64,000 nucleotides of DNA from NCBI GenBank assembly GCA_022703645.1, contig JAKLDG010000001.1, positions 338,814-402,813 of the forward strand, in the 5' to 3' direction. The notes beneath the pieces are model-generated. The model ran no database searches, was not told the DNA's origin, and saw nothing but the letters and a program-made list of their open reading frames with translations. The translations under genes were made by a program, and so were the position numbers. Each line of letters starts with the position of its first letter. The stretch's first letter is position 1. Below, piece by piece: positions 26,858 through 59,179 of this stretch. The stretch comes from Patescibacteria group bacterium. Its GTDB lineage: Bacteria > Patescibacteriota > JACPGU01.

Positions 26858-26873
26858 CTTTTTTAACTTAAAT

Positions 26874-26983
26874 AAAAAATTAAAAATCAAAGTGCAAAAA
26901 ATTGGGGTTCCTGCGGAATGATATCTAATTTTTAATTTTACATCTGTCATTTTACATTTTGATATTTACATTTTACATTGCAT
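26874..26983. repeat. Solo (cargo-less) copy of the TGTAAAATG hairpin element
   Basis: Left arm TTAAAAATCAAAGTGCAAAA, short loop, right arm CATCTGTCATTTTACATTTTGATATTTACATTTTACATTG. Confidence 0.7.
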
Positions 26984-27020: not shown

Positions 27021-28724
27021 ATGTTAATTGACGAGAAAAAACTAAAATCTATTCTAATAGACGCTGGAATAGTTGACGAGGCTGCTTGGGAAGATGTGAT
27101 AAAAAACGCTCACAGATTGGAGGTCTCTCCTGAAGATATACTCCGTCAGAAAGACATTATTTCCGGTCATCTTTATTATGAAATATTGGCGAAAGGCTTG
27201 GGAGTAAAATACGTAAACTTGAAGCGCCTCGAGGTTGATGAAGGAGTTCTCGATATTTTCAATGGCGACACTGTTAATAAGTACGGCGCTATTCCATTCG
27301 AGATTTCAAAAGAAAAAGGCTTGGGCAGAGCAAAACTGAAGGTTGCTTTTACCAAACAATGGGACAAGCAGATCTTAAGAACTTTGCAAATTAAAGCAAA
27401 AAGAAAAATCGAGCCTTATTTGACAGACGATATCAGTTTCCGCTCAATATTTGTTTATTACAAAAAAGAAGTCGCCGAAAAACTGAAAGTTCTTATTGAT
27501 AAAAAATCTCACGATCATACACAGTGCGAGGACTGTTTTGATCTTCTTATGGAATACTGCTACTACACCAGACCTTCCGACATTCATGTCGAAGAATTTG
27601 CAAATAGCGGTGTGGTAAAATTCCGTATCGACGGTTTTCTCCATGATGAATTTGAAATGGCGCCGCAATTGATTCAAAAGCTGGTTGAGATAATCAAAAA
27701 ATCTTCTGAAACCACTACCGACGAAGACAATCAAACTGACGACGGAAGATTTAGCGTAGAGGTATTCGATGAAGAATTAGCTTTCCGTGTTTCAATAATA
27801 CCGACTTATTTTGGTGAAAAAGTTTGTCTCAGAGTTCTTGATGATTCCAAACAAAAATTATCTTTGCACGATCTGGGTTTCAACGACTCGGATATTGTGA
27901 TGCTGAAAAAAGAATTCGAAAAACCTTATGGACTAATATTAATCAATGGTCCAACCGGCAGCGGCAAATCTACGACACTTTATTCTGTTTTGAAATTTTT
28001 GAATATTGAAGGCACCAGTATTGCGACAATCGAGGATCCGGTGGAATATCCGATCAAGCATATTAATCAAAGCCAAGTGGATGAGGAAAATGGGTTTACC
28101 TTTTCGCGAGGGTTGAAAGAGCTTCTACGCCAAGATCCTGATATTGTGGTGATTGGCGAAATACGCGACAATGAGACTGCTAGCATCGCCGTAAACGCCG
28201 CTCTGACGGGTCATATAGTGCTATCAACTATTCATTCGAATACTGCCGTAGGGACGATTTCAAGACTGGAGAATATGGGAATTCCAAACTATCTTCTATC
28301 CCCAACGCTCGACTTGGCGATTTCGCAAAGATTGATAAAGAAAATGTGTATTTATTGCCGGGAAAGTTTCACACCGGAGAAAAAATACCTTGATAAATTG
28401 GATCGCGATGTTGGGGTTTACGCATCTCTCGCAAAACTGAAAAAAATGGGGCTGATTAGTTATAAAACCTACAAAGACATTATTTTATTCAAAAACCATG
28501 GCTGTCCAAGATGCGGGGGCAAAGGTTTTACCGGTAGAATCGGTGTATTTGAAATTTTGAATAGCAACAAAGACATTCAAGAAATGATTTTGACCGGTAA
28601 AAGTGAATCACAGATCGCAAAACATGCCGAAAGCCAAGGAATGCTGACGATGTTTGAAGATGGACTTTTGAAGGCTCTAAACGGCATGACAACGATTGAA
28701 GCAGTAATAGATGTGGTCAGGTAA
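27021..28724 (+). CDS. pilB: Type IV pilus / type II secretion assembly ATPase (GspE/PilB family)
   Basis: T2SSE_N-like N-terminus, Walker A GPTGSGKSTT, Walker B DPDIVVIGEIRD, tetra-Cys CIYC...CPRCGGKG. Confidence 0.9.
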   Translation: MLIDEKKLKSILIDAGIVDEAAWEDVIKNAHRLEVSPEDILRQKDIISGHLYYEILAKGLGVKYVNLKRLEVDEGVLDIFNGDTVNKYGAIPFEISKEKGLGRAKLKVAFTKQWDKQILRTLQIKAKRKIEPYLTDDISFRSIFVYYKKEVAEKLKVLIDKKSHDHTQCEDCFDLLMEYCYYTRPSDIHVEEFANSGVVKFRIDGFLHDEFEMAPQLIQKLVEIIKKSSETTTDEDNQTDDGRFSVEVFDEELAFRVSIIPTYFGEKVCLRVLDDSKQKLSLHDLGFNDSDIVMLKKEFEKPYGLILINGPTGSGKSTTLYSVLKFLNIEGTSIATIEDPVEYPIKHINQSQVDEENGFTFSRGLKELLRQDPDIVVIGEIRDNETASIAVNAALTGHIVLSTIHSNTAVGTISRLENMGIPNYLLSPTLDLAISQRLIKKMCIYCRESFTPEKKYLDKLDRDVGVYASLAKLKKMGLISYKTYKDIILFKNHGCPRCGGKGFTGRIGVFEILNSNKDIQEMILTGKSESQIAKHAESQGMLTMFEDGLLKALNGMTTIEAVIDVVR

Positions 28725-28763
28725 GGGTCCAATTTTTAATTTTATAATTTTTAATTTTTAAAA

Positions 28764-28889
28764 TTGTCTAAAAAAACACGTACCAAAACCAAAACTTCAA
28801 CCATAACTGGTGTTCAAATGGGGCTTCTCATTTCGACTATTTTTATTATAGTTGGACTTTTTTATGCTGTTTTTAGCTTTTTTCAATAA
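28764..28889 (+). CDS. Possible small membrane protein (41 aa from TTG, or 23 aa from the ATG at 28818)
   Basis: Open frame with basic N-terminus KKTRTKTKT and one TM, LLISTIFIIVGLFYAVFSFF. Below the ORF-track size cutoff. Confidence 0.25.
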   Translation: MSKKTRTKTKTSTITGVQMGLLISTIFIIVGLFYAVFSFFQ

Positions 28890-30573: not shown

Positions 30574-30682
30574 ATATCAAAATGCAAATATCAAAGTGTA
30601 AAATGACAAATTAAAATTAAAAATGTATAATATGCCAAAGGCATACCAAAATTTTACATTTTGATTTTTAAATTTTAAATTT
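30574..30682. repeat. Solo copy of the TGTAAAATG hairpin element with GC mini-hairpin core
   Basis: Left arm ...ATCAAAGTGTAAAATGACAAATTAAAATTAAAAATG, core TATGCC-AAA-GGCATACC, right arm AAAATTTTACATTTTGATTTTTAAATTTT. Confidence 0.7.
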
Positions 30683-31626: not shown

Positions 31627-33006
31627 ATGTCTATGCCTAAAACGAATTTGAAATTTGTTTGTAATAATTGCGGGGCGGAGTTCCTTCGCTGGCAGGGGAA
31701 ATGCTCAGCATGTAATGAATGGGAAACCCTCGAAGAAATTAAAATTTCTTCTCGAGTTCAAAGTTCAAAGTTAAAAGTTCAAAGTGGCGGTGTTGCTGCG
31801 CAACTTATTTCTTTAGATAAAGTTGATAGTAAAAATTTTGAAAGAATCAAAACTAATATAAGTGAATTTGACCGCGTGCTTGGCGGGGGGATCGTACTCG
31901 GTTCGCTGGTTCTCTTAGGTGGAGATCCGGGGATAGGAAAGAGTACTTTGCTTCTCCAATCTCTCGTTGGAATTTCACAAAATAAAAGTCTGACGAAAAT
32001 TCTTTACGTCAGCGGCGAAGAATCAGCGCAACAAATAAAGCTTCGCGCGGAAAGACTGAAAATTAAAAATGAAAAGATATTTCTGCTTGCTGAAAGCGAT
32101 CTGGAATCAATCCTTGCAACTATTGAAATGGAAAAACCAAACCTGGTTATTATTGATTCTATTCAAACCGTATATTCCGATCAAATTGCTTCCGCGTCAG
32201 GCAGTATAGTACAGGTGAAAAACGCTACCGAGTCCCTGATGCGCGTTGCAAAAGCCACGAATGTGCCGATTTTTATTATCGGACATGTGACAAAAGATGG
32301 GGGGATAGCGGGTCCAAAAACGCTTGAGCATCTTGTTGATGTTGTTCTTTACCTCGAAGGAGACCGCTATCAATCTTTCCGAATCCTGCGCGGGATAAAA
32401 AATAGATTTGGCAAAACTTCCGAGGTTGGAATATTTGAAATGGAAGAAAATGGCATGACTGAAGTTGCAAATCCTTCAAAGGTTTTTCTCGAAGAACGTC
32501 TTGAAGGGGCGAGCGGTGTTGCAGTTAGTTCGATTATCGAGGGTAACCGTCCGTTTCTGGTTGAAATTCAAGCATTGTGTTCCAAGAGTTATTTTGGTTA
32601 TCCAAAAAGAACGTCTTCAGGAATCGATTTAAATAGATTGAATTTGTTAATTGCAATTATTGAAAAACGCGTGGGTGTGGATATGAGTCAATTTGATTGC
32701 TATCTCAATGTTGTTGGAGGCATCAGAATTCGTGAAAATTCAGTTGACTTGGCAGCTGCTTTATCGATAATTTCGGCGGCAAAAAACAAGCCAATAGACG
32801 ACCACACAGCCATTTTCGGAGAACTCGGGCTTTCGGGCGAAATTCGCTCTATTCCAAATCTGGAAAAAAGAATCGAGGAGGCAATCCGCATGGGGTTTGA
32901 CAAAATAGTCATTCCGAAGCAAAATAGTCAAAGCAAATTGAAGCCTGTGGGAAAAGTGAAATTTATTGAAGTAAGAACGCTAAAAGAGTCAATGGGAAGG
33001 GTATAG
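31627..33006 (+). CDS. radA: DNA repair protein RadA/Sms
   Basis: Zinc finger CNNCG...CSACNEW, Walker A GGDPGIGKST, KNRFG motif, Lon-like C-terminus. Confidence 0.95.
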   Translation: MSMPKTNLKFVCNNCGAEFLRWQGKCSACNEWETLEEIKISSRVQSSKLKVQSGGVAAQLISLDKVDSKNFERIKTNISEFDRVLGGGIVLGSLVLLGGDPGIGKSTLLLQSLVGISQNKSLTKILYVSGEESAQQIKLRAERLKIKNEKIFLLAESDLESILATIEMEKPNLVIIDSIQTVYSDQIASASGSIVQVKNATESLMRVAKATNVPIFIIGHVTKDGGIAGPKTLEHLVDVVLYLEGDRYQSFRILRGIKNRFGKTSEVGIFEMEENGMTEVANPSKVFLEERLEGASGVAVSSIIEGNRPFLVEIQALCSKSYFGYPKRTSSGIDLNRLNLLIAIIEKRVGVDMSQFDCYLNVVGGIRIRENSVDLAAALSIISAAKNKPIDDHTAIFGELGLSGEIRSIPNLEKRIEEAIRMGFDKIVIPKQNSQSKLKPVGKVKFIEVRTLKESMGRV

Positions 33007-34530: not shown

Positions 34531-35982
34531 ATGCCACTTTCTAAACTTAGAAAACACTTTGCGCAGTTTTGGCCGCATGAGGTGGTTATAGCGATTTTTC
34601 TGCTTGCGATTCTTATGGTTATCACTTTTCGTGACAAAGGATGCAATCAGTCTCCTCGGGAGCAAAAAGTGATTCTACCGCGGTATTTTACCTCGGACTA
34701 TCCGGTTAAGTTCAGCAAAGAGAATTTGATTGCCGGGGCTATCAAAACTTACGATCCGATTATTTTCAATGTAAAAAGAAATGGCGGGCCGCAGGCAATG
34801 ATGGAACGAATCGATCAATACGACTTGGCTATTAATGCTGCAGCCAACAAACACGGCGTCGATGCGCTGACGCTTAAAGGAATTATTTATCTTGAAAGCG
34901 GCGGGGATATTTACGCGCTTTCCGGGTCATCTTGCGCAGGAATTGCGCAGTTTTCTCCCTCCACGGCACGCGGATACGGACTGAAAGTGGCGGGAAACTG
35001 GTATCGATTTTACCTCCGGTTTAAAAAAAGCGGCGCAGATAAGGACGCCATCACGCTTTCACGCATCGATGAACGCTTTGATCCCATAAAAGCAATTGGT
35101 GCTCAAGCCGCGTACATAGCTTCCTTACAGCAAAAATATGGCGAGGTCGATTTCGCGGTTGCGGGATACCATATGGGTGGAAGCAATTTGAGTAATGTTA
35201 TCAGAGAATATCGAGCCGGTTGGCAATCACCCGAAAAAATTACTTGGGAAGATATCGTTTTTGACGCTTCTCCTTCAAAACACCCCAAGACCCATCGGCT
35301 GCTTTTCCATGAGTTGGAAGATTACTCGTGGTCCTACTATTTTCGCGTCCGCTCAGCTATGAAGGCTAGATCTCTTTGGAAAATGGACAAGGCTGTCTTT
35401 GCGCAAAAAGTAGAGCAGCTAAATAATCCAATTCGCAGAACTCAACTGGTAACTGAAACCATCTGGTATCCGGAAGAAAAAATGCCACAATATACAATGG
35501 CGCAGGTAGAGAGGTGGGCTCAGTCGGGACTTTTTGCAAAAATAGAACCCAGTGATTTTCTAAACATCCAGCTTAATAAAGTCAGCGCGCCATATCTGTC
35601 CCAGAATGCTGCCGGCGTGCTTTACCATCTTGCTGGTCAGATGAGGCAAGTAACCGGACACGGAATTACGGTAAATTCTGCTCTGCGCACATACGAAAAG
35701 CAGATACAGTTAGTTCGCCAGGGACTTTCTCCTTCGGTCTATTCATCGCATCTCTGGGGAGAAGGTATTGATATCGATCCTTACAATTCCGACAAGTTGA
35801 ACGATCAGTTGTCATGGTTTCTTGATCAGCTGAAATGGCGCGGCGATATCGTCTGGTATAGAGAAGGCAATCATTTTCACATTACTGTCGCGCCAAATGA
35901 GAAATTCGTTACCCTCGCTAGCAGAGCGATCTTGAACCTTCATGTAAAACAAGCGGAGGAATCTCGTTTCGCCAGCAAGTAA
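34531..35982 (+). CDS. Cell-wall hydrolase fusion: SLT-type lytic transglycosylase plus C-terminal M15/VanY-like peptidase
   Basis: SLT motif IIYLESGGD...GIAQF. C-terminal SSHLWGEGIDID...GNHFHITV (H/D/H metal-ligand pattern). GC above background. Confidence 0.65.
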   Translation: MPLSKLRKHFAQFWPHEVVIAIFLLAILMVITFRDKGCNQSPREQKVILPRYFTSDYPVKFSKENLIAGAIKTYDPIIFNVKRNGGPQAMMERIDQYDLAINAAANKHGVDALTLKGIIYLESGGDIYALSGSSCAGIAQFSPSTARGYGLKVAGNWYRFYLRFKKSGADKDAITLSRIDERFDPIKAIGAQAAYIASLQQKYGEVDFAVAGYHMGGSNLSNVIREYRAGWQSPEKITWEDIVFDASPSKHPKTHRLLFHELEDYSWSYYFRVRSAMKARSLWKMDKAVFAQKVEQLNNPIRRTQLVTETIWYPEEKMPQYTMAQVERWAQSGLFAKIEPSDFLNIQLNKVSAPYLSQNAAGVLYHLAGQMRQVTGHGITVNSALRTYEKQIQLVRQGLSPSVYSSHLWGEGIDIDPYNSDKLNDQLSWFLDQLKWRGDIVWYREGNHFHITVAPNEKFVTLASRAILNLHVKQAEESRFASK

Positions 35983-36002
35983 CCAATTCAAATTAACTCT
36001 TC

Positions 36003-36032
36003 AAGCCGTTCTGGTAAAGAACGGCTTTTTTG
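36003..36032 (+). terminator. Rho-independent terminator
   Basis: AGCCGTTCT-ggtaa-AGAACGGCT plus T run. It overlaps the track's TTG start at 36030, which favours the ATG at 36048 for mpg. Confidence 0.7.
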
Positions 36033-36047
36033 TTTATAATTATATCC

Positions 36048-36707
36048 ATGAAATTAAAAAGATCATTTTTTAATCGCGATACAAATATAGTTGCGCAAGA
36101 GCTTCTCGGCAAAAAAATTGTCCGGGTTCTGCCTGATGGCAGTAGAATTGAGGCTATTATAACCGAAACCGAAGCTTATCATGGATTTGATGATAAAGCC
36201 TCTCACGCAAGCCGCGGTAAAACTGAAAGGAATAAAGTGATGTTCGATAAGGCAGGGTTGGTTTATGTTTATTTAATCTATGGAATGCACTATTGTTTGA
36301 ACTTTACAACAATGGGAAAAGGGTTTCCAGCAGCAGTACTGATTCGAGCTGTTGCTCTCAAAATCCCAAATCATAAATCCCAATGTCCAAACAAATCTCA
36401 AACCCGAAATTCCAAGTTTAAAAATTTAGATTTTGAAAATTATTTAAAAATTACAAAATTAAAAATTAAAAACTTAACTCAAATAAACGGTCCTGGCAGA
36501 ACCTGTAAAGCGCTCCAAATTGATAAATCTCTTTATGGCGAAGATTTGGTTGCCAGTAATCATATTTGGATCGAACCTGTAGAAACACAGATTCGTGTGT
36601 CTAAAAAAATTATCTCATCAAAACGTATAGGAGTTGATTATGCGGGTGAATGTAAGAACTGGGAATGGAATTATAAAGTAGATGCGAAAGCGATAATATT
36701 GTGCTAA
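36048..36707 (+). CDS. mpg: DNA-3-methyladenine glycosylase (MPG/AAG family) with low-complexity insert
   Basis: FFNRDTNIVAQELLGK, ETEAYHG, GLVYVYLIYGMHYCLN, NGPGRTCKAL. Confidence 0.85.
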   Translation: MKLKRSFFNRDTNIVAQELLGKKIVRVLPDGSRIEAIITETEAYHGFDDKASHASRGKTERNKVMFDKAGLVYVYLIYGMHYCLNFTTMGKGFPAAVLIRAVALKIPNHKSQCPNKSQTRNSKFKNLDFENYLKITKLKIKNLTQINGPGRTCKALQIDKSLYGEDLVASNHIWIEPVETQIRVSKKIISSKRIGVDYAGECKNWEWNYKVDAKAIILC

Positions 36708-36739
36708 AATAAAATTATAAAAAGTAATATATTTCAAAT

Positions 36740-37165
36740 ATGAATAATGAACAAAATAATATGTCAAAACTGAATGTTTCGGAAATAAAAAAGAGGATGG
36801 CTTCAAGAGAAGGCTTTACTGAAGTTTCGGATAAGATCAAGAAATTTGGTGAGCTCGGGCTGAATATAAGAGAACATCATAGTATTTATAGTACGCCACC
36901 TGGCGATCTGATTCGTAGAATAAAATGCAAAGAAGACGAGGATAAGACTCTTGGGGAGCTAATGAGCGATGAGGAGATATTGGAACGTTTGGATTATTCG
37001 ATAAAATTTTATAATTATTTTAAAGATGATATAATTGATAACCTGCCTGATGATGTAGCTAAAGATACGGTAATGGGCGTCAGAGAAAATCTACCAAAAG
37101 ATATAGCCTACCTTCGCTCAATAGGGCGTCTTCCGGAAAAATACCGTGATTTTCTAAAAGAATAA
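36740..37165 (+). CDS. Hypothetical protein
   Basis: Intact ORF. No family recognised. Confidence 0.4.
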   Translation: MNNEQNNMSKLNVSEIKKRMASREGFTEVSDKIKKFGELGLNIREHHSIYSTPPGDLIRRIKCKEDEDKTLGELMSDEEILERLDYSIKFYNYFKDDIIDNLPDDVAKDTVMGVRENLPKDIAYLRSIGRLPEKYRDFLKE

Positions 37166-46500: not shown

Positions 46501-49500
46501 ATGATTGTGGTAAAGAAAAAGAAAATACCTTTAAGACCGTTTTTAATCCTCTTAGTGTTAATAGCTGGGTTTACTTTGAGTTTGGGTTTAAAACCAAATG
46601 AAAAAATAAAAGCGGCTTATTCTAATCCTTGCAAGACAGCTGGCACGTATGCTGGTTATGTAGTTGACGCGAATCTTAATGTTATTATTCCGGCTTACAA
46701 TAATGCTGTGTTTGGTGACACTTTCTATGATAGTACCAGCAAAGAAATTCATTGTAAAAGCATAACGATAGAAACGGGAGCGACTTTAGATATATCGCCA
46801 AAAACTACCGGTGCAAGTAAAACAGGCGGCACAAATTATAGAAGATTGGTTCTTGATGGTGATTTGAATATCGCAAGCGGTGGAACGCTAAATCTATATG
46901 GCGGCAATATATATAATACCGGCGGACTCAATGGCACTGGGATAACAAATGATGGAAAAGGATATGGTATGAATGTTATGGTTGGTGGAAATGTTTTGGT
47001 TGAATCCGGCGGATGGATATCAGCTGATGGCAAAGGGTATGAACATAGTAAGGGGCCGGGAGCAGGTGTGGCTGAACCCGGTTCACAAGGCGCTGCATAT
47101 GGTGGGGCTGGTCCGGATGGAACCAATTGTTATGGGAAATATTACGGTTCGGTTTCTGACCCGATAGAACTCGGCAGCGGCAGTAGTTTGGGAGTAGGAG
47201 GCGGAGTAGTTGATATAACTGCCGCGGGAACAATATTAATTCGCGGCGTAGGCAAAATTACGGCAAACAGCATTGGAGAGGGATCGGGCGGTTCAGTAAG
47301 ACTCAGCGCCAATACTATTAGTAGTACAATTGACGGCGTAAATATACCTTCTATTACAGCAAATGGCGGTAGTGGGTCTTATTACAGTGGCGGCGGCAGA
47401 ATCGCGCTTTTTTATAATTCATCAAATTTTGGCGGTGATATCAAAGCTATTGCTAACGCCTATGGAGGAGCTGGCACTGTATTCAAGAAAAAAAATATCG
47501 AGGCTTATGGTGATTTAATTATTACAAATAATTATCAGGATCATACCGATAACCCTCCGGACTATACTCCATATGCATATACAAAAATTGGCAAAACAAA
47601 AATCGATTCTGGCACATATAAGAATATCACAGTTAATAAAAGAGCAAACGCTATTATTGAATCTAGTAATATAGTAAACATCAATGGTGGTACTTTTGAA
47701 GTAAATAATTCCAAACTTGAAAATAAAGGCACTTTAGCTTCACAGACTTCCGCAGAAAAATTTCTGGCGAAAAATACCGCTCGGATACTTAATAGCGGTA
47801 CAGGGTTATTTAGCCTGTCCGCGAACTCAAACGCTATATTTGACGGCATAGACACTTATTTTGAGAACCAAAATAATATTATCCAAAATTTCGCCAATTT
47901 AACTATCTCTAACGGGGCTGTCATGAGCCATGCCGTCAATGATGCTACCGGTGTGACAAATTGTCTTAGGAATTCAATTGATAATCCAGTTGGCGGCGCG
48001 ATCCCTCCTTGCGAATATAAGGATTGGGGTGATGGCTATGGGAAACATTGGAATCAAAAATATACCTTAAGGATAAATGCCACAAGTGTTAATATTGATA
48101 ACAAAAGTTCGATAGATGTTTCACAAAAGGGATTTCAAACATTACCTGGAACATCAGGTTTTGGGCCGGGAGGGTCAAGTACGGCTTACTCAATCGGTGG
48201 TTACGCGGGAGGTTCTTATGGTGGCAGAGGTGGTAACGATAATACTGGGGGAGTAAGCGCAGATATTTATGGCGACTCGGATGGAGACCTGAATAATCCA
48301 AATGATCTGGGAAGCAGCGGTGATACCGGCTATACTGCCGGAGGATTAGTAAGAATAACAGTTTTGGGCGATATTGTTAATAATGGCTCTATATTATCAA
48401 ATTCAGGTACGGTTTCAAATGGTTTTGCCGGTGGGTCAGGAGGAGGCATAAGATTGGATGCAGACCGGATTCTCGGAGCTGGAAAAATTTCTGCCAACGG
48501 CATGCCCGGAACGATAGATCTTGCGAAAGGCGGCGGAGGAGGCGGAAGGATCGCGATCACATACAAAACCACAAAAGATTTTTATGGTCCAATTACCGCT
48601 TATGGAGGGTCTACTGATGGGGGACCCGGTACGATACTTTTTGCAAACAATAGCTCGGGAGCCTTAATTGATAAAGAACTTGTTATTTCTAATTCAGTTT
48701 TAAACGACAATCCAACCAAAATAGGAGGCGGTACGTATAAAAATATTACCGTAAAGAATACCTCGCCAACTCTTACTGACCTGACTTTAGCCGCAATCGT
48801 TTCTGGACAATCCGTTGTCATGCAAGATGGTGGGAATTTTGAAGTTAACCAAACTAATTTAACTAATAGCGGAACTATTTCTTTATTAGCCGGAACGTCA
48901 AATTTAGTTATAAAGGGAAAATCAAATTTTATTAATATCGGACCTACCGCCTCTCCTGGCATTAACGCGAATAGTACTTCTAAAGTTATTTTGGACAATG
49001 CCAATTTTGAAAATAAGAATAATATTGAACAGAATTTTGGCAATCTTTATATCCAGAATGGAGCAATATTAACGCATACTCAAAATGATTACTTAACGGT
49101 AAATTGCGTGAATACTTCCTGTACCAACCAAGACCTGGGTGATGGCAATGGAATGCATTACAATCAGGCTTATACATTAAGAATACATGCAAACAATGCT
49201 TTAATTGATAAATTTAGCGCTATTAATGTTGATGGCAAGGGCTATGACATGGGTAGAGGACCGGGTAATAATGGGTCTGCTAATTCTGCCGGAAGTTATG
49301 GCGGAGCTGCGTCAAGCGGCGACAGTACCTATGGTTTAGCGGATAACCCTAATGATTTGGGCAGTGGAGGTTATTCCGGTAGTTATGGTGATAATACCGG
49401 CGGCGGTTTAGTAAGAGTTAGGGCAGACGGTAATATAACAGTTGATGGCTTTATTTCTTCGGATACAACATCTGCCGGATCTTTTGACGGCGCTTCAGGA

Positions 49501-52500
49501 GGCGGTATAAAATTAATAGCAAATAGTATTCTTGGCTCCGGTTCTATTTCCGCTAGTTCTAATTTGACAAGCGGGAATATTGGCGGAGGTGGCAGAATAT
49601 CTCTCATAGCTACGCAAAAAAATTACAGCGGCACCGTCTCTGTGAATAGAGGTGGAACTGGAGCGAATTACGGTACTATTTATGATTCTCTGGCTATCCC
49701 TACGACTTATGGTCCGAGCGCAACACCATTAACTTATAATACAAAATTAAGTAATAATACTCCATATATAAAAGCCGATAGTTCAGCAACAACGATAGGT
49801 GTTGATGAAGGCAATGCAGTTAGCACTGGATATACTCCAGATTCTGATACCTCACTTCTTTTGAAAATGGATAACTGGGGAGATGGTCTTATTTATGATT
49901 CTTCCGCAAAATCAATACCTGTTATTAAATATGGCACAACTTCCTTCTCTGATACTGTTTTGAAAACTGGAACGCATTCACTATTATTTAATGGTTCCAC
50001 AGGTCGTTTAATACCTGATGGTACTTTTACATCAAATTTCCAGTATGGCACCGGAGCTTTTACTATTGATACTTGGATTTATCCAAAATCTGTTACGACA
50101 CTTCAAACAATTTATTCTCAAAAAAATAGCGCGACACCAACAACTAATGCATCATCATTACAAATTACTACTACCGGTCAGCTAAAATATACTGAAAATG
50201 GAGTTTCTATTATTTCTCCTGTCAGTACTATAAAACTAGGCAGTGATGTCGGATGGCAACATGTTGCTTTAGTTAGAGATAATTTAGGGGTTGAAAGATT
50301 ATTTTATAATGGTTCCGTAGTAGGAACACAGTCGTCTACATACTCCAAATTCAGCGATGTCGGTATCGGATGTTTATACCAGTCTACTAATACATTATTT
50401 TATAATGGCTATATGGATGAGTTCCGTATCAGTAAAGGAGTGGCGCGCTGGACCTCTGATTTTATTCCATTATCTGATGATGGCAACTGGGAAAAATTAA
50501 ATTTGAGAGCAACAAGGACTAACCCTAGCTCCGATACTAAGCTTTTGCTTCATCTCGATGGAACAAATGGATCAACTACCTATACTGACAGTTCTCCTTC
50601 AAACCATACAATATTGCGTTACAACACACCAACAATTTCCACTAACACTAGTAAATTTGGCGGCGCGTCAGGCGCTTTCCCGAGAGTAACCTCTCCATAC
50701 TTTGATTATATTTATGCTAATGATAATGTTAATGATTGGACTTTTGGCGCGGGTGATTTTACGATAGATTTTTGGGCTAACTTTTCAGATAATGTCAGGC
50801 AAGGTGTTCTTGCCATCGGCTCCGGCGCTTATGCTCCAATTGCTTTTGAAGTAGTAAGCAACAATCTTAACGTCTACATGACTAGTAATGGTAGCAGTTG
50901 GGATATCGCTAGCGGTCAACCAGTTGGCCAAACATTTGGTCCGGTAACACCAGGCGTTTGGGTACATTATGCGCTAACAAGGAATGGAAATACTTTTTAT
51001 CTTTTTGTTAATGGTACTACTGTAAACTCTTTTATGTCATCATTAAGTTTATGGAATAATAGCGGCGCTTTATATATAGGGCAATATTTTGGGTCTGTTA
51101 CAGCCTTTAAGGGCTATCTGGATGAATTTAGAATTATAAAGGGAAGAGCGGCTTGGAGTAATAATTTTACTCCTTCTACAACTCCCTATGAAATTTATGA
51201 TGACCCGTCTTTCAATGGAACGGTAGATATTGGCATAATAGATAATCTTGCAGGTGAATATGTTTTTTCCGGCTGCAACGGAGCGAACTGTACTTTTTCA
51301 GATTCAAAAGTTACAGCGAGATTCATAAATGGTATTGCTAATTTAGCAGTAAAAGTAAAAGACAAAAGAGATGGGCAGATAAAGCATCACGGTTTTTCAG
51401 GGCTAAAAATTAACTCCGTTTCAAATGTATCTTATATAAATAATAATCAAATAACCGGAGCTATCGAAATTCAAGATAGAACCCCAGAAAGATCAATACC
51501 ATCAGGTCCTGCCCCCGCAGGAAGTATTACTAAAGGAACTGCTGGCGCTACTATTTTTCCAATGGGAGCCGGTTTTAGTATTATAAATAATTCCAAAGGA
51601 ACCAGTCAGAGCCAACAAGATTTGGGTGGTAATTTAGTGGTTCGAGGTCCATTAGCATCCGCGCCATATCGTCTTTACCTTGATAAAAACATAATGTATA
51701 AAAGAGGTGATTATTTGAATAGCGACGGAACTATTAGCAGCGTGGCAACAGATTATCAAGTGGTTTGTGTTAATACAGCGGACTATACCCAAACAAAAAT
51801 AAGATGTAATGATGATCTGAGCACCAGCGCTATTCCATCAGGATTGCGAAATTATGGTATATATACATTTAATAAAACTTATAATTTCTATACCCAGAAC
51901 GAAACCTCTAATTATTCAGCGCCTTCAATATCTCAAGTTCTTATACCAGCTAGCAACCCAACTGTGCCTGTTATTTCTCCTTTAACAATAACTCCGACTA
52001 ACGGAAAATTAAATCTCAGCTGGAATAATCCAATTGATAATATCGGGCAAACAAAAACTTTGATCGTTAGAGGTATCGATAGTATTCCTACTTTCGTTCC
52101 AAGTGATGGGACGGATTATAATACCTGGTCAAATACTACTGTAACCGGAGAAGAGATGATCTATGACAGCACTAATGTCGGGGCGGGAAGTGAAGTAAAA
52201 AACTTTGACGATGCCAATGTATTTTTTGGAACCAGATACTGCTATACAATCTATGCTCAATATATTGGTTATATTTATTCGGTAGGGACTTCTGCTTGCA
52301 GCACTCTAACATCAATTATTGATCCGCCAGTCAACCCAACTATCACGATTCAAGGAATGATGATAAATATCGGATGGACAGCGCCACCTTCCGGCAATCC
52401 TGATAATTACCTGATTGTTAGAAAAAAAGGCACAACAGAACCAAACTGGAATCCAACCGGGGAAACTGCTGACTATAATATTGGTGATACGGTTGGCGAT

Positions 52501-55500
52501 GGTGTTGTTGTCTGTAAAGGATTTTCATGCACTGATCAAAATGTAAATGTAAATACTTTGCCAACCCAGTATTATTATAAAATTTATGCTCAGTATGGAA
52601 CCGCGGCTCCCTTCAGTTATTCTGTCGGTTCAACGGCAGTAAGCGGAAATCCTAACCCGGAAAACCCCCAAAAGTTTGATAATACCAATGAAGCAACACC
52701 AAGTGTAACACTGGACAATCTATCAGGACCTTACACGCCTCTTAATACATTTAAGATTGCAAATTATCTTGTCTGGAAAGCAACAACTCCGGCTGATTGC
52801 TCAGGGGCTTGGACGCCAACCAATGGAGCTGACTATTCAGGAGTGCAAGGAACTGGAAATATCATTTACAAAAACCCAGCAGCGCCAATATCATATATTG
52901 ATACTGCAGTTACAAATGGCGTTGGTTATTGTTACAAAATCTTTGTCCAATATAATGGTGAAACAATCAATACTACTGATCTAATGTATTCTTCTGGATT
53001 AAGTCTTTGGACTCAACCGCCAAATCATAATCCAACAATTAGCGTAAATAGCATCACCCAAACGATCGGCACGGATAATGTGGTAATTAACTTTAATGTA
53101 AATGATATTGATCCATCTGATAATGGCAAGCTTTCTGTTGGCTTTGCTGTTACAAATCCGGTTTCAGGATGCAGTATTAGCACTTTAACCGGACCAATAA
53201 CTAACCTCGGTGTCGGAGCTCATAGCGTTACTTGGACCGCCACTACCACTAATGGAACCGCGGGGGATTGTCCAGGCGTAGAAATGTTAGCCGGTTCTGC
53301 TCAACTGACAGCCACTGTTTCCGATTTTATCGGAGCCACCGGTACCGCTAGTCCAACTTTCTCTCTTGACACCAAAGCTCCCATTGCAAGTTCCAGCCTT
53401 ATTTTGTCCTCCAAAAACAGCAACTCCATTACTGTCGCTACCGGAGCTACCGGGGCTACTGATGGAAACATAAAAACTACCGCTGCCTATAAAGTCTATT
53501 ACAAGCAAGGATCAACGGTAGACGAAGTAAGCGGTACGCAAATACTACCAAATATTAATAGTTATGTTGCGGGACAGATATTTACTGCTTCCTCGCTAAT
53601 AACTAACCAGCAATATTCATTTAATATCTGGGCTTATGATAACTATGGACATAAAACTGCTGCTACGGTATTAAATGTCAGCACAAAAGGAAAATCTGTT
53701 ACAGGATTTACAGCTATAGTTCAAGGTATGAGAGTCCATCTGAGTTGGGACGCAATGCTGCCGGCGCCAGATAAGCATCTGGTTATTCGTAAGAAAGGAA
53801 CATCCGCGTCTACTTGGACGCCAACAGATGGTATTGGAATATATGCTGCTGGCAACACGGTAGATGCAGATACGATAGTAGTTTACCATGGCACAGGCGT
53901 CACTCTGGATGATGATGCAGTTGATGGAGCAGCCTATACCTATACTATCTTTGCCAACTATTCTGGAAATCTATATTCAGAGGGGGTTTCAGCTCCATCG
54001 ATAACACCGAATGCTCTGAACGCGTCGTTATCTGCTCCTGCCTATATACCAAATGGATCAAATTATGATATCGCACTCAACTGGGTAGCCCCCACACCAA
54101 GTTACAGTTTACAAAAATATGTAGTAGTTAGAGAAGTTGGGTCTCCTACTTGTTTAATCGAATGGACGCCAACCAAGGATAATAACTATAATGCATTAGA
54201 TCCAACCGGCTTTACTAATGAAGAAATTATCTATTCCGGAACCGGAACCACTACTACTGATAATATGGGAGGAACGGGAGTTTCTTCTGGTACAAATGTT
54301 TGCTATAAGATCTTTACTCAATATCTGGGAGATGATTTAGCGGTTCCAACAAACTTAGTTTATTCCGCTGGAATTGCCGCTACCTATGTACCGCCAAATC
54401 TGCCTCCAGAGATAGAGATTGGTTCAGTCACAGCGCTACAAACTACCGGAACTGAAAATATTGTTATAGCTTACCGTGTTAGAGATTCCGACTCAACCAA
54501 TTTGAATATTACATTTAGCATGATTGATCCGGGAGGCTCCACTTGCCAAATGAATTTAACTGATAATTTGGCGGGGATTGATGGCACTTACTATACTCAT
54601 ACCGCTACTTGGAATGCAGGGCTGGCAGGAGAGTGCCCGGGATTTGAAGTAACAAATGCTGTTATCCAAGTAACTGCCAGCGATAGTCTTAATTCTGTTT
54701 CGCAAAACTCCGCTCCATTTCTGCTTGATACTCTATCCCCAAGGCTTCCAACTCCAACTGTTTCTAACTTTAATTTAACTAATTTTTCATCAACAGGAGA
54801 TAAGATATTCTTCAATCTAGGATCTAATTCAACAACTGATACTAATGCGCTTAACTACAAGATATACTATGCTTCTGGGGGAAGTGTTGATGAAACAGGA
54901 ATACTCATAACAGGAGCTCCTATAGCATTTACTCCTGGAGCTGCATATTCGGTAACCGGATTAACACCGGGACAAAACTATACATTTAATATTTGGGCTT
55001 ATGATAAATATGGGCATAAAACTTCTGCGACTTCCGTAACATATTCAACTATTGTGCCTGCTCCGGCAAGCTTCTCTGTAACTCCGCATGGAATGAGATT
55101 ATCACTTACTTGGACGGCTCCTGTCGGTGGAACCCCAGACTATTATCTGATAGTTAGAAAAGCTAATTCAGATCCAATAATAGCTCCCGCTAATGGTTCT
55201 ACATACAACCTGGGGGATATTTTGAGCGGGGGAATGGTAGTCTACAATTCAACCGGGACAAGCCTTGACGATGATAATATTGATGACGGTCCTTACTATT
55301 ACCGAATTTATGCGCATTATTCAAATGGCAATTTCTCACCAGCCTTGGCTGGCAATGCGATTGCAGTGGCGGAAGGACCAAATACATTCAGCGCAACCTC
55401 AAGCCCAGCGCCAGTAGTCACATACATAGACACTCCACCAACAAATAATTTCAGTTTCGAGAACTATCTTATTTGGAAGAAAGAACAACCTAGCTGTACT

Positions 55501-58321: not shown

Positions 58322-59179
58322 ATGAGCAATCAAGACGATGTCCGCATAAATATTTTAGGAATTCCTATCGATCGGGTAGGTTATATTGATGTTTTAGATA
58401 AGATTGAATACTATATAAAAAAAGGCGGGTATCACTATATCGCAACGGTTAATCCAGAGTTTATTATGCACGCGGCGCAAGATAGCGAGTTTAAAAAAGC
58501 ACTACAAAATTCGAACTTAAATACAGCTGATGGCGTCGGAATCGTATGGGCAAGTAAATATCTTGCGAAAACTCAAAAATCAAATCTCAAATCTCAAAAT
58601 TTAAGCATCACTTCGCGATTTATTTATAAAATCAAAAAGATATTCTGGTTGAAAATTTCTTTGTTCTCAATTTTATTTAACCGTCGTTGGCTCTATTCTG
58701 AAATTCCGGAGCGTGTTACCGGAGCAGACCTGATCTGGAAAATAGCAAAAAAAGCGCAAGATGAAGGCTGGAAAATTTTCCTACTTGGAGCAGGGGAGGG
58801 AGTCGCGGGAAACGTTGCGGGAAAATTGAAATCAAAATTCCCGAAAATTAATATTGTCGGTACTTATTCAGGCCGCCCGGAAGAAGAGGGGATTGCTGAT
58901 AGAGTTGCCGGATATGAACCGGATATTTTGTTTGTTGCTTTTGGCTCTCCTCGACAGGAAAAATTCATTTATAACAATTTGGATAAGCTCAATGCAAAAG
59001 TTGTTATTGGAGTCGGTGGAACATTTGATTTTATTGCTGGGCTAGCAAGAAGAGCGCCAAGATTTATGAGGAGATTCGGAATTGAATGGTTATGGAGACT
59101 TGTCTGCCAACCATTTCGAATCGGCAGAATTATCAACGCTTTTCCAAAATTTGTCTGGAAAGTTTGGAGGGGTAAATAA
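58322..59179 (+). CDS. WecB/TagA/CpsF-family glycosyltransferase with ~40-aa insert
   Basis: VNPEFIM, NTADGVGIVWA, ERVTGADL, FLLGAGEGVA, LFVAFGSPRQE, RAPRFMRRFGIEWLWRL. Confidence 0.8.
   Translation: MSNQDDVRINILGIPIDRVGYIDVLDKIEYYIKKGGYHYIATVNPEFIMHAAQDSEFKKALQNSNLNTADGVGIVWASKYLAKTQKSNLKSQNLSITSRFIYKIKKIFWLKISLFSILFNRRWLYSEIPERVTGADLIWKIAKKAQDEGWKIFLLGAGEGVAGNVAGKLKSKFPKINIVGTYSGRPEEEGIADRVAGYEPDILFVAFGSPRQEKFIYNNLDKLNAKVVIGVGGTFDFIAGLARRAPRFMRRFGIEWLWRLVCQPFRIGRIINAFPKFVWKVWRGK

What the first reader, a model, noticed from the sequence alone, without database searches (positions are those of the whole stretch)
36357..36485. Hairpin-element-like low-complexity DNA is translated in frame inside the mpg glycosylase
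Between the conserved GFPAAVLIRAV and NGPGRTCKAL blocks, the gene contains ~125 nt of AAATCCCAAAT/AAATCTCAAA... followed by TTTAGATTTTGAAAATT...AAAATTAAAAATTAAAAAC. This is translated as LKIPNHKSQCPNKSQTRNSKFKNLDFENYLKITKLKIKNL. The sequence style (tandem ~7-nt units, then roughly complementary units) is that of the intergenic hairpin elements. Homologous MPG proteins, as I recall them, have only a short linker here.
Basis: partly seen in the sequence, partly recalled or inferred. Interest (0 to 1): 0.5.

Follow-up and report, generated by a model that had tools for sequence, protein, structure and literature searches.

The report
Hairpin-repeat DNA translated inside a DNA-repair gene
A small-genome (Patescibacteria) bacterium carries, in frame inside its 3-methyladenine DNA glycosylase gene, about 125 bases of the same 7-base-repeat and hairpin DNA that litters its intergenic regions. 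It is read as a floppy lysine-rich surface loop, a new bacterial example of selfish or slippage-prone DNA becoming part of a working protein.

Summary
Window 36357-36485 lies in frame in an intact mpg/AAG gene (36048-36707; Pfam E 5e-55; catalytic residues conserved) and encodes LKIPNHKSQ...KIKNLTQI.

The insert has two modules:
- **Module A (36360-36413)** is an A/C-rich ~7-nt array, inherited vertically in several relatives.
- **Module B (36414-36475)** is an AT-only imperfect hairpin. Its 26-mer ATTTAAAAATTACAAAATTAAAAATT recurs in intergenic DNA: one mismatch at 28731-28756, exact in two related genomes. The best non-mpg match scores 72.5 bits, against a maximum of 44 for shuffles.

Window and L082 read the same 22-nt core in different frames, so the DNA is conserved, not the peptide.

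Period-7 arrays are uniquely over-represented (12 regions; none at periods 4-6 or 9-12) and mostly intergenic.

The site is a β-turn of 6-10 aa in minimal homologs and a partly disordered 34-aa loop in human AAG. In relatives it holds 6-57 aa, including complete two-arm repeat hairpins and perfect 28-42-nt palindromes.

The window's own hairpin is weak (z -2.1), and module A has no complementary arm.

Closest known kinds: Rickettsia palindromic elements, intragenic REPs, heptameric repeats of Nostoc and Xanthomonas.

The parts
36048..36707 (+). mpg gene (3-methyladenine/alkyladenine DNA glycosylase, 219 aa) that hosts the insert
   Evidence: Intact ORF. Pfam PF02245 E 5.1e-55, 186 bits. Human AAG chains match at E 5e-28. 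The AF2 model matches 1EWN at E 8e-17. E42, Y44, H53, Y75, Y78, N85 and R100 correspond to human E125, Y127, H136, Y159, Y162, N169 and R182, and are invariant in the alignment.
36357..36485 (+). The flagged in-frame low-complexity insert, L104-I146 (43 aa; 9 K, 1 R, 1 D, 1 E, 6 N)
   Evidence: GC is 0.24 against 0.35 for the gene. pLDDT is below 50 for aa 109-122 and about 52 for aa 129-142.
36360..36413 (+). Module A: degenerate A/C-rich ~7-nt array (AAATCCC, AAATCAT, AAATCCC, AATGTCC, AAACAAATCTC, AAACCCG, AAATTCC), encoding KIPNHKSQCPNKSQTRNS
   Evidence: Orthologous at the same site in L085 (80% over 59 nt ungapped, E 3e-11), L081 (75%) and L086 (73%). There is no significant copy outside mpg: 37.9 bits, reached by 1 of 200 shuffles. 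The model shows disordered coil here.
36414..36475 (+). Module B: AT-only imperfect hairpin (arms 36414-36441 and 36448-36475, 75% complementary, 6-nt spacer), encoding KFKNLDFENYLKITKLKIKNL
   Evidence: z -2.1. It matches intergenic hairpin arms at L087 3204-3262 (88% over 59 nt), L083 1299-1357 and 1360-1417 (85% and 84%), and window 28719-28765 (83% over 36 nt). No shuffle of 200 reached the observed score. It is orthologous in the mpg of L082 (77% over 69 nt) and L170 (27 of 27 nt).
36442..36467 (+). 26-mer core of the dispersed element, ATTTAAAAATTACAAAATTAAAAATT
   Evidence: Exact here. One mismatch at 28731-28756(-). Exact at L083 1307-1332(-) and L087 3212-3237(-). Chance expectation is 0.00. 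Its 22-nt core is read in phase 2 in the window and L170 (LKITKLKIK) but in phase 0 in L082 (KNYKIKNF).
28731..28756 (-). Intergenic copy of the same element arm, directly after the stop codon of a T2SSE/PilB-like ATPase gene (27021..28724)
36579..36602 (+). Second in-frame hairpin site in the same gene: decayed GTAG-tagged palindrome GTAGAAACACAG-ATT-CGTGTGTCT, encoding VETQIRVS
   Evidence: Nine orthologs of identical length keep the pairing with different arm sequences. 83% of cells are paired against 65% in shuffles (0 of 500), and 6 of 8 pairs have changes on both sides. The hairpin is absent in L082, L084, L086, L001 and L089.

Best explanation
The segment is genuine coding DNA of repeat-element origin. 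It is a composite of two modules:
- Module A is a degenerate A/C-rich heptanucleotide tandem array.
- Module B is a copy of an AT-rich hairpin element from a dispersed family otherwise found in intergenic DNA of this Patescibacteria clade.

Both modules sit in the turn of a surface β-hairpin of MPG, between the strand that carries active-site L98 and R100 and the strand that leads into the NGPG motif.

The proposed mechanism is inferred, not shown. This lineage has a strong genome-wide tendency to create or propagate 7-nt tandem arrays and inverted copies of them, through polymerase slippage in 7-nt steps, template switching, or an unidentified mobilising activity. Copies that land in genes survive only under three conditions: the protein tolerates an insert at that point, the total length stays a multiple of 3, and the A-rich strand is the sense strand. 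That strand gives stop-free K/N/Q/S/I/P peptides. The MPG β-turn is such a permissive site.

The result is translated as a 43-aa, net +8, largely disordered loop. The loop is most likely not needed for catalysis and has turned over rapidly among relatives.
For: **The host enzyme looks functional.** The ORF is intact, the Pfam match is strong, all catalytic residues are conserved, and the fold is AAG-like.

**Module B is the same DNA as intergenic hairpins.**
- It is 84-88% identical over 58-59 nt to both arms of intergenic hairpins in L083 and L087, and 83% over 36 nt to window 28719-28765.
- The score is 72.5 bits against shuffle mean 34.3, sd 3.2, max 44.1.
- The 26-mer is exact or has one mismatch, where chance expects 0.00.

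**Conservation is at the DNA level.** The same 22-nt core is read in different frames in the window and L170 than in L082. The sequence downstream of it differs by one 7-nt unit.

**Period 7 is a property of the genome.**
- There are 12 period-7 regions in the window and none at periods 4-6 or 9-12. Eight of the 12 are intergenic although 88% of the window is coding.
- There are 27 period-7 regions in 110 kb of relatives' DNA, against none at periods 4-6.
- Intergenic heptamer-arm hairpins fold well (z -2.9 to -5.0 for three of them). They form dispersed families that are 80-88% identical across loci and genomes.

**The site is permissive and turns over fast.**
- Among the top 120 homologs the linker is 6-57 aa, median 18.5.
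- P0022 has a 10-aa linker and groups inside the insert-bearing clade in a neighbour-joining tree.
- L169 and L171 carry complete two-arm tandem-unit hairpins in frame (RNA fold energies -28.9 and -14.9 kcal/mol).
- L087, L110, L160, L002, L019 and L083 carry perfect 12-21-bp stems there. That is 1.0 per kb, against 0.024 per kb in other internal coding DNA.

**Structure.**
- Insert residues 109-122 have pLDDT below 50.
- The insert aligns with human AAG residues about 183-215. Residues 203-207 of that stretch have no electron density even in a DNA complex (PMC3075667).
Against: - The window's own hairpin is weak (z -2.1), and module A has no complementary arm.
- Module A has no detectable copy outside mpg, so it may have grown in place rather than been inserted.
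- The aligned parts of the insert are 63-80% identical between lineages, above third-codon-position identity (0.44-0.54). This could mean some constraint. Low complexity and gapped alignment also inflate these figures.
- No target-site duplication, terminal inverted repeats or transposase was found. Only 64 kb of the roughly 867-kb genome was visible.
- Translation and dispensability are inferred. No proteomic or biochemical data were available.
Confidence: 0.68

Rival explanations
1. Pure in-place expansion. The loop grew by replication slippage and AT-biased drift of an ancestral linker, as low-complexity inserts do in AT-rich genomes. No element was ever inserted, and the resemblance to intergenic hairpins is convergence under the same mutational bias.
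For: - Module A has no copy outside mpg.
- Heptamer arrays at the orthologous radA linker use a different unit in each genome: AGTTCAA, AAATTCC, AAATCTC, AAGCTCA, GGAAAGT. This fits local generation better than one mobile sequence.
- A polymerase-slippage explanation for heptamer excess has been proposed (PMC4692102).
Against: Module B shares an exact 26-mer, and 84-88% identity over 58-59 nt, with intergenic elements at non-orthologous places in other genomes. This is far beyond composition-matched shuffles. Convergence on that much identical sequence is implausible.
Confidence: 0.15
2. A functional peptide. The lysine-rich loop (net +8) is an adaptive replacement for the basic helix-loop of canonical AAG (human 187-215). 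It aids non-specific DNA binding or lesion search and is kept by selection.
For: - The insert has 9 K and 1 R against 2 acidic residues.
- The human equivalent is also basic and flexible (PMC3075667).
- Aligned insert DNA is more conserved than third codon positions.
- KITKLKIKN is shared by the window and P0018.
Against: - The same DNA is read in another frame in L082, giving KNYKIKNF.
- Close relatives have unrelated content here (VGARRAVPL in P0017) or no insert (P0022).
- pLDDT is below 50.
- Lysine and asparagine richness follows automatically from A-rich DNA.
Confidence: 0.1
3. A cis-acting nucleic-acid function. The hairpin itself, in the mRNA or in the DNA, is what is selected, for example as an RNase site, a translational pause between the two halves of the fold, or a DNA structure. 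The peptide is a by-product.
For: - Perfect hairpins recur at exactly this site in at least six other lineages.
- At the second site in the same gene the pairing is kept through changes on both sides.
Against: - The window's hairpin is imperfect and barely better than shuffles.
- L081 and L085 carry inserts with no hairpin at all (z +1.0 and +0.3).
- There is no promoter-like or terminator-like site in the insert and no Rfam match.
- Arms of a palindrome can stay matched without selection, through templated correction or replacement from other copies.
Confidence: 0.06
4. An artefact or a dead gene: an assembly chimera, a pseudogene, or a segment that is not translated (intron, intein or ribosomal bypass).
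For: None found.
Against: - The identical protein is held by several sources, on a contig of 867 kb.
- Orthologous inserts occur in independent metagenome assemblies.
- The ORF is continuous, both flanks stay in frame, and the catalytic residues are intact.
- At 43 aa with no intein blocks, the segment is too short to be an intein (inference).
Confidence: 0.01

Closest known systems
Rickettsia palindromic elements (RPEs)
   Same: These are ~100-150-bp hairpin-forming repeats that also occur between genes. They are found inserted in frame in unrelated housekeeping genes, adding 30-50 aa at positions compatible with the fold (PMC10969869; Ogata et al. 2000, from memory). The window's insert matches them in size (129 nt, 43 aa), in being in frame and in surface location.
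   Different: - The host is a different phylum.
- The window's insert is built from 7-nt tandem units and is AT-only in its hairpin part.
- It is a composite of two modules.
- The host site shows rapid turnover, with unrelated hairpins in sister lineages.
- No similarity to RPE consensus sequences was tested.
Intragenic GTAG-tagged REPs (Di Nocera, De Gregorio & Rocco 2013, PMC3733652)
   Same: These are short palindromes, normally extragenic, that are found inside genes and translated. That paper notes that many lie in replication and repair genes. The second site in this mpg (36579-36602) and the site-1 palindrome of L087 have the GTAG tag followed by a 9-14-bp stem.
   Different: The flagged insert itself has no GTAG tag and is not a compact GC-containing palindrome. 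No REP-associated tyrosine transposase (RAYT) was looked for. REPs had not, to my knowledge, been described in Patescibacteria.
Over-represented heptameric simple-sequence repeats (Nostoc GGGGAYT and the STRR repeats, Xanthomonas GGGAATC)
   Same: Tandem 7-nt units are specifically over-represented relative to other unit sizes. They are mostly intergenic, sometimes occur as inverted pairs able to form stem-loops, and vary in length and sequence between close relatives (PMC4692102). The window shows the same period-7 excess. Module A's unit AAATCCC resembles the complement of GGGGATT.
   Different: In the window the units are A/T-rich rather than G-rich, so no G-quadruplex is expected. The host is a Patescibacteria bacterium. 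Several arrays here are translated inside genes (mpg, radA, wecG-like).
Low-complexity Asn/Lys-rich inserts in proteins of AT-rich genomes such as Plasmodium falciparum (from memory)
   Same: Hydrophilic, disordered, fast-evolving inserts sit in surface loops of conserved enzymes, driven by slippage and base composition.
   Different: Here part of the insert is demonstrably the same sequence as an extragenic hairpin element, and the repeat unit is 7 nt, not a codon multiple.

Membership tests
MPG/AAG glycosylase (Pfam PF02245), the host gene | Significant match to the family profile | tested here: met
   E 5.1e-55, 186 bits against a cut-off of 27. Residues 6-210 match profile positions 1-176, about 29 residues more than the profile.
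MPG/AAG glycosylase (Pfam PF02245), the host gene | Catalytic and intercalating residues (human E125, Y127, H136, Y159, Y162, N169, R182) | tested here: met
   E42, Y44, H53, Y75, Y78, N85 and R100 are invariant in the 38-sequence alignment and aligned to the human residues.
MPG/AAG glycosylase (Pfam PF02245), the host gene | AAG fold | tested here: met
   AF2 mean pLDDT 78.5. Foldseek finds 1EWN_A at E 8.2e-17, TM 0.69/0.75.
GTAG-tagged REP | Compact 20-40-bp palindrome with an unpaired GTAG at one end | tested here: not met
   For the flagged insert: no GTAGRR...YYCTAC anywhere in the window, and the hairpin is a 62-nt AT-only structure with 75% pairing. For the separate site 36579-36602 the GTAG tag and a decayed stem are present.
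GTAG-tagged REP | Many copies in the genome, and an associated RAYT transposase | not tested
   Only 64 kb of the genome was available and no search for a RAYT was made. Related GTAG palindromes occur in other genes of relatives (L084 2094-2121, L087 17648-17667). A decayed one is at window 63442-63465.
Rickettsia palindromic elements | Membership of one of the RPE sequence families | not tested
   No RPE consensus was compared. The host is a Patescibacteria bacterium, so membership is not claimed.
Rickettsia palindromic elements | In-frame insertion of a hairpin repeat that also exists between genes, at a position tolerated by the fold | tested here: met
   In frame. Extragenic copies exist. 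The site is a surface β-turn with low pLDDT and insert-free relatives exist. This shows that it works like an RPE, not that it is one.
Heptameric simple-sequence repeats / heptamer-arm hairpins | Tandem 7-nt units, with period 7 specifically over-represented | tested here: met
   12 period-7 regions in the window against none at periods 4-6 and 9-12. 27 against none in relatives. TRF reports period 7 at 36444-36477.
Heptameric simple-sequence repeats / heptamer-arm hairpins | A second arm made of the complementary units | tested here: inconclusive
   Module B has two arms at 75% complementarity, z -2.1. Module A has none. Full two-arm versions occur at the same site in L169 and L171.
MITE (miniature inverted-repeat transposable element) | Terminal inverted repeats flanked by a target-site duplication | tested here: inconclusive
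   CTCAAA occurs at both edges (36355-36360 and 36478-36483, read), but it is part of the repeat unit itself. No clear ends could be defined.

The most novel reading that the evidence does not exclude
Patescibacteria may have an undescribed process or mobile system that keeps generating hairpins: 7-nt-unit hairpins, perfect 28-42-nt palindromes and GTAG palindromes. These hairpins repeatedly occupy the same β-turn of MPG and a second loop of the same enzyme. They would be kept base-paired by selection for a cis-acting role in the mpg mRNA or DNA, so the protein loop would be a by-product of a nucleic-acid element embedded in a repair gene.
Probability: 0.1. Interest if true: 0.7.

Novelty: new variant of a known kind. 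Interest (0 to 1): 0.45.

Why it matters
The finding gives a clean case, traceable at sequence level, of extragenic repeat DNA becoming part of a conserved enzyme in a minimal-genome bacterium. The same 22-nt stretch is read in two frames in orthologs, and sister lineages carry other hairpins or nothing at the same turn.

This extends the RPE and intragenic-REP phenomenon to Patescibacteria and to a different kind of element, hairpins whose arms are 7-nt tandem arrays.

There are practical consequences. Peptides such as KSQ.PNKSQ, KITKLKIKN or VGARHALP in metagenomic proteins are translated repeats, not motifs. The MPG turn is a ready-made permissive site. The period-7 excess points to a lineage-specific mutational process worth characterising.

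Tried and rejected
- **Rfam:** a scan of the whole window at gathering thresholds found nothing.
- **GTAG palindromes:** a GTAGRR...YYCTAC search in the window gave 0 matches, so the flagged insert is not a GTAG REP.
- **Promoter and terminator scan, 35900-36800:** nothing inside the insert. The ordinary terminator of the upstream gene is a GC-containing stem at 36003-36027, unlike the heptamer hairpins.
- **Copies of module A:** no significant second copy in the window or outside mpg in relatives.
- **Collection scans:** Close relatives had to be fetched one at a time, and DNA for P0009 was not retrievable.
- **Viral contigs:** the 26-mer is absent.
- **Periodicity scan:** the first attempt used a threshold that was too strict and found nothing at any period. 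It was redone.
- **Phase variation:** heptamer slippage switching mpg on and off was considered. The arrays in mpg are too degenerate for efficient slippage, and every relative is in frame.
- **LeuRS heptamer hit (9343-9373):** it lies in a conserved part of the enzyme and may be chance, so I do not count it as an insert.
- **Is MPG uniquely targeted?** Per gene, about 5.6% of MPG genes carry a perfect stem of at least 12 bp, against roughly 2% of other genes in the same loci. The 41-fold enrichment per kb mostly reflects that all the MPG hairpins fall in one permissive turn.
- **Assembly artefact, pseudogene, intein, intron or bypass:** rejected, as set out under the rival explanations.

Full report
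**1. The observation**

The ORF list gives one long + strand ORF, 36030..36707. The likely start is the ATG at 36048, giving 219 aa. L104-I146 is encoded by 36357-36485 and reads LKIPNHKSQCPNKSQTRNSKFKNLDFENYLKITKLKIKNLTQI, between PAAVLIRAVA and NGPGRTCKAL.

The protein is a confident MPG/AAG glycosylase:
- Pfam PF02245 matches at E 5.1e-55.
- Human AAG chains match at E about 5e-28.
- The AlphaFold model (mean pLDDT 78.5) matches 1EWN at E 8e-17.
- The residues equivalent to human E125, Y127, H136, Y159, Y162, N169 and R182 are invariant in a 38-sequence alignment.

An identical protein is on record as a 'Patescibacteria group bacterium' MPG on an 867-kb contig. The nearest named relative is a 'candidate division CPR3' protein.

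**2. Is it more than chance?**

Period 7 is a specific property of this DNA.
- With a 24-nt sliding window and at least 19 matches, the 64-kb window has 12 period-7 regions. It has none at periods 4, 5, 6 or 9-12, and 3 at period 8.
- Eight of the 12 are intergenic although 88% of the window is coding. One is 36442-36474.
- In 110 kb from ten related contigs the counts are 27 for period 7 and none for periods 4-6.

- The best inverted repeat is internal to the 3' half: 36414-36441 against 36448-36475, 75% complementary.
- The DNA fold has z = -2.1, with 9 of 200 shuffles as good.
- The A/C-rich 5' array has no G-rich partner.

**3. Anatomy: two modules**

Module A (36360-36413) is a degenerate AAATCCC-type array. 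(AAATCCC)3 translates to KSQIPNP. It is inherited vertically, at the same place in the mpg of three relatives: L085 (80% over 59 nt ungapped, E 3e-11), L081 (75%) and L086 (73%). I found no copy outside mpg. The best other match scored 37.9 bits, which 1 of 200 shuffles reached.

Module B (36414-36475) is different. Outside mpg it matches:
- both arms of an intergenic hairpin in L083 (1299-1357 and 1360-1417, 85% and 84%);
- one arm in L087 (3204-3262, 88% over 59 nt);
- window 28719-28765 (83% over 36 nt), directly after the stop codon of a PilB-like ATPase gene.

The best score was 72.5 bits, against mean 34.3, sd 3.2 and max 44.1 for 200 dinucleotide shuffles. The 26-mer ATTTAAAAATTAYAAAATTAAAAATT is exact at 36442-36467, has one mismatch at 28731-28756, and is exact in L083 and L087. 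Chance expects 0.00.

Module B is also present in the mpg of L082 (77% over 69 nt) and L170 (27 of 27 nt). Its 22-nt core is read in phase 2 in the window and L170 (LKITKLKIK) but in phase 0 in L082 (KNYKIKNF). So what is conserved is DNA, not peptide.

**4. The intergenic elements**

The window has clear hairpins whose arms are tandem ~7-nt units followed by the complementary units.
- Examples are 10109-10196, 10495-10607, 15726-15843 and 30599-30682.
- Three of them fold with z = -2.9 to -5.0.
- They form dispersed families. Elements 10105, 15725 and 61220 are 80-82% identical over 65-76 nt. Element 10490 is 88% identical to L083 6051-6109 and 73% to L082 907-1024.
- They differ from the ordinary GC-stem plus T-tract terminators of this genome. 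Some lie between divergent genes.

**5. The host site**

Counted from the R of LIR to GPG, linker lengths are:

| Source | Linker length |
|---|---|
| Window | 47 aa |
| Bacteroidales and Nitrospira-type MPGs | 6-10 aa |
| Many bacteria (with an EPxEGxxxMxxxR motif) | 24-33 aa |
| Human AAG | 34 aa |
| Top 120 homologs, which the few named ones suggest are mostly CPR (median 18.5) | 6-57 aa |

The model puts the insert between strand 95-105 and strand 143-147. Residues 109-122 have pLDDT below 50, and there is a low-confidence helix at 129-142. The equivalent human stretch is residues 183-215. Residues 203-207 of it lack electron density even in a DNA complex (PMC3075667). So the site is the turn of a surface β-hairpin.

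**6. Relatives**

Close relatives (55-67% protein identity, with conserved radA...mpg synteny) have very different content at this turn:
- shared module A: L085, L081, L086;
- shared module B: L082, L170;
- a perfect 28-nt palindrome, GTAGGGGCACGGCG|CGCCGTGCCCCTAC: L087;
- a 15-bp perfect stem after AAAATCC units: L083;
- two GC-rich hairpins: L084;
- complete two-arm tandem-unit hairpins, in L169 (CATTGNCT units followed by AGCAATGG units, -28.9 kcal/mol) and L171 (AATATTG units followed by AATATTC units, -14.9 kcal/mol);
- almost nothing: L088 (P0022), 10 aa.

In a neighbour-joining tree built from the non-insert columns, P0022 and P0017 group inside the insert-bearing clade. That tree has no support values.

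More distant homologs also carry perfect stems of 16-21 bp here: L002 and L019, which are named CPR lineages, and L110 and L160, metagenome contigs of unknown affiliation.

Across 108 sequences (107 fetched loci plus the window itself), perfect stems of at least 12 bp occur at 1.0 per kb in this linker. The rate is 0.024 per kb in other internal coding DNA and 0.25 per kb elsewhere. Per gene the excess is modest, about 5.6% against about 2%. MPG is not uniquely targeted. Rather, everything that survives in MPG lies in this one turn.

**7. Explanation**

I conclude that the insert is repeat-element DNA of the same kind as the intergenic hairpins, tolerated in frame in a permissive turn. The frame change and the one-unit offset downstream of the conserved core point to 7-nt indels inside the insert, compensated to keep the overall frame.

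Only the A-rich strand gives stop-free hydrophilic peptides. This explains why in-gene arrays are single-armed and A/C-rich.

Whether the elements are mobilised by an enzyme or arise by slippage and template switching is not shown. Different units at the orthologous radA linker argue for local generation of arrays. The dispersed, near-identical copies of module B argue for copying.

The rivals are in-place growth only, a functional basic loop, a cis-acting hairpin, and an artefact. Each is weighed in its own section of this report.

**8. Comparison with known kinds**

It works like the Rickettsia palindromic elements (PMC10969869) and like the intragenic REPs of Di Nocera et al., who noted that many sit in replication and repair genes (PMC3733652). 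Its building blocks resemble the over-represented heptameric repeats of Nostoc and Xanthomonas, which also occur as inverted pairs (PMC4692102).

It is not a GTAG REP, and membership of the RPE families was not tested. I rate it a new variant of a known kind, of moderate interest.

**9. Limits**

Only 64 kb of the genome was visible, and no expression or biochemical data were available. Blast statistics on AT-rich low-complexity DNA are unreliable, so I relied on shuffles. The tree has no support values. The covariation count at site 2 rests on nine related sequences.

Noticed in passing
window 36579-36602 (mpg, PVETQIRVSKK): There is a second in-frame hairpin site in the same gene, a GTAG-tagged REP-like palindrome. 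It is decayed in the window but near-perfect in L085, L087, L088, L169, L170 and L171, with different arm sequences. 83% of cells are paired against 65% in shuffles, and 6 of 8 pairs changed on both sides. It is absent in L082, L084, L086, L001 and L089. It maps to human AAG residues about 246-254, where the side chains of L249 and E253 are poorly ordered (PMC3075667).
   Followed up: partly
window 31752-31788 (radA linker after the zinc ribbon): (AGTTCAA)x4 is translated as SRVQSSKLKVQS. The orthologous linker in relatives carries heptamer arrays with different units: AAATTCC in L081, AAATCTC in L082, AAGCTCA in L083, GGAAAGT in L001. So the 7-nt array is conserved at the site but its sequence is not.
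   Followed up: partly
window 58566-58604 (WecG/TagA-family glycosyltransferase, 58322..59179): An (AAATCTC)-type heptamer array is translated as KTQKSNLKSQNL, upstream of the Pfam domain. Similar arrays lie in the orthologs at L082 13003-13048 and L083 6342-6385.
   Followed up: partly
window 10109-10196, 10495-10607, 15726-15843, 26870-26979, 30599-30682, 61225-61290: These are intergenic hairpins whose arms are tandem ~7-nt units followed by the complementary units. Some have a small GC-containing hairpin at the centre. They form dispersed families shared with related genomes. Some lie between divergent genes, so they are not simply terminators.
   Followed up: partly
window 63442-63465 (ClpC/ClpB-like gene 61363..63876); L087 17648-17667; L084 2094-2121: GTAG-type 28-nt palindromes are translated in frame in other genes of the clade. 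L087 ClpC-like reads VGARHALP. L084 tRNA-U5-methyltransferase-like reads CRDKACLVPT, 4 aa longer than L082 at that point. A decayed copy, GTAGAGATACAAAATCTTGCGTCT, sits at the orthologous place in the window. Different reading frames are used.
   Followed up: partly
window 7164-10070 (-), about 8550-8850 for the domain: The leucyl-tRNA synthetase (969 aa) carries an inserted NUDIX hydrolase domain (aa 407-506, E 3.6e-12) between the editing domain and the second half of the catalytic core. The ortholog in L087 has it too.
   Followed up: partly
L082 19953-19978 and L087 18636-18661: A perfect 26-nt AT-only palindrome, TTTAAATTTAAAA|TTTTAAATTTAAA, is conserved inside the orthologous metallo-β-lactamase-fold gene of two relatives.
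   Followed up: no
window 46501-57534 (+): A single ORF of 3677 aa, a giant protein for a genome of roughly 0.87 Mb. It was not examined.
   Followed up: no
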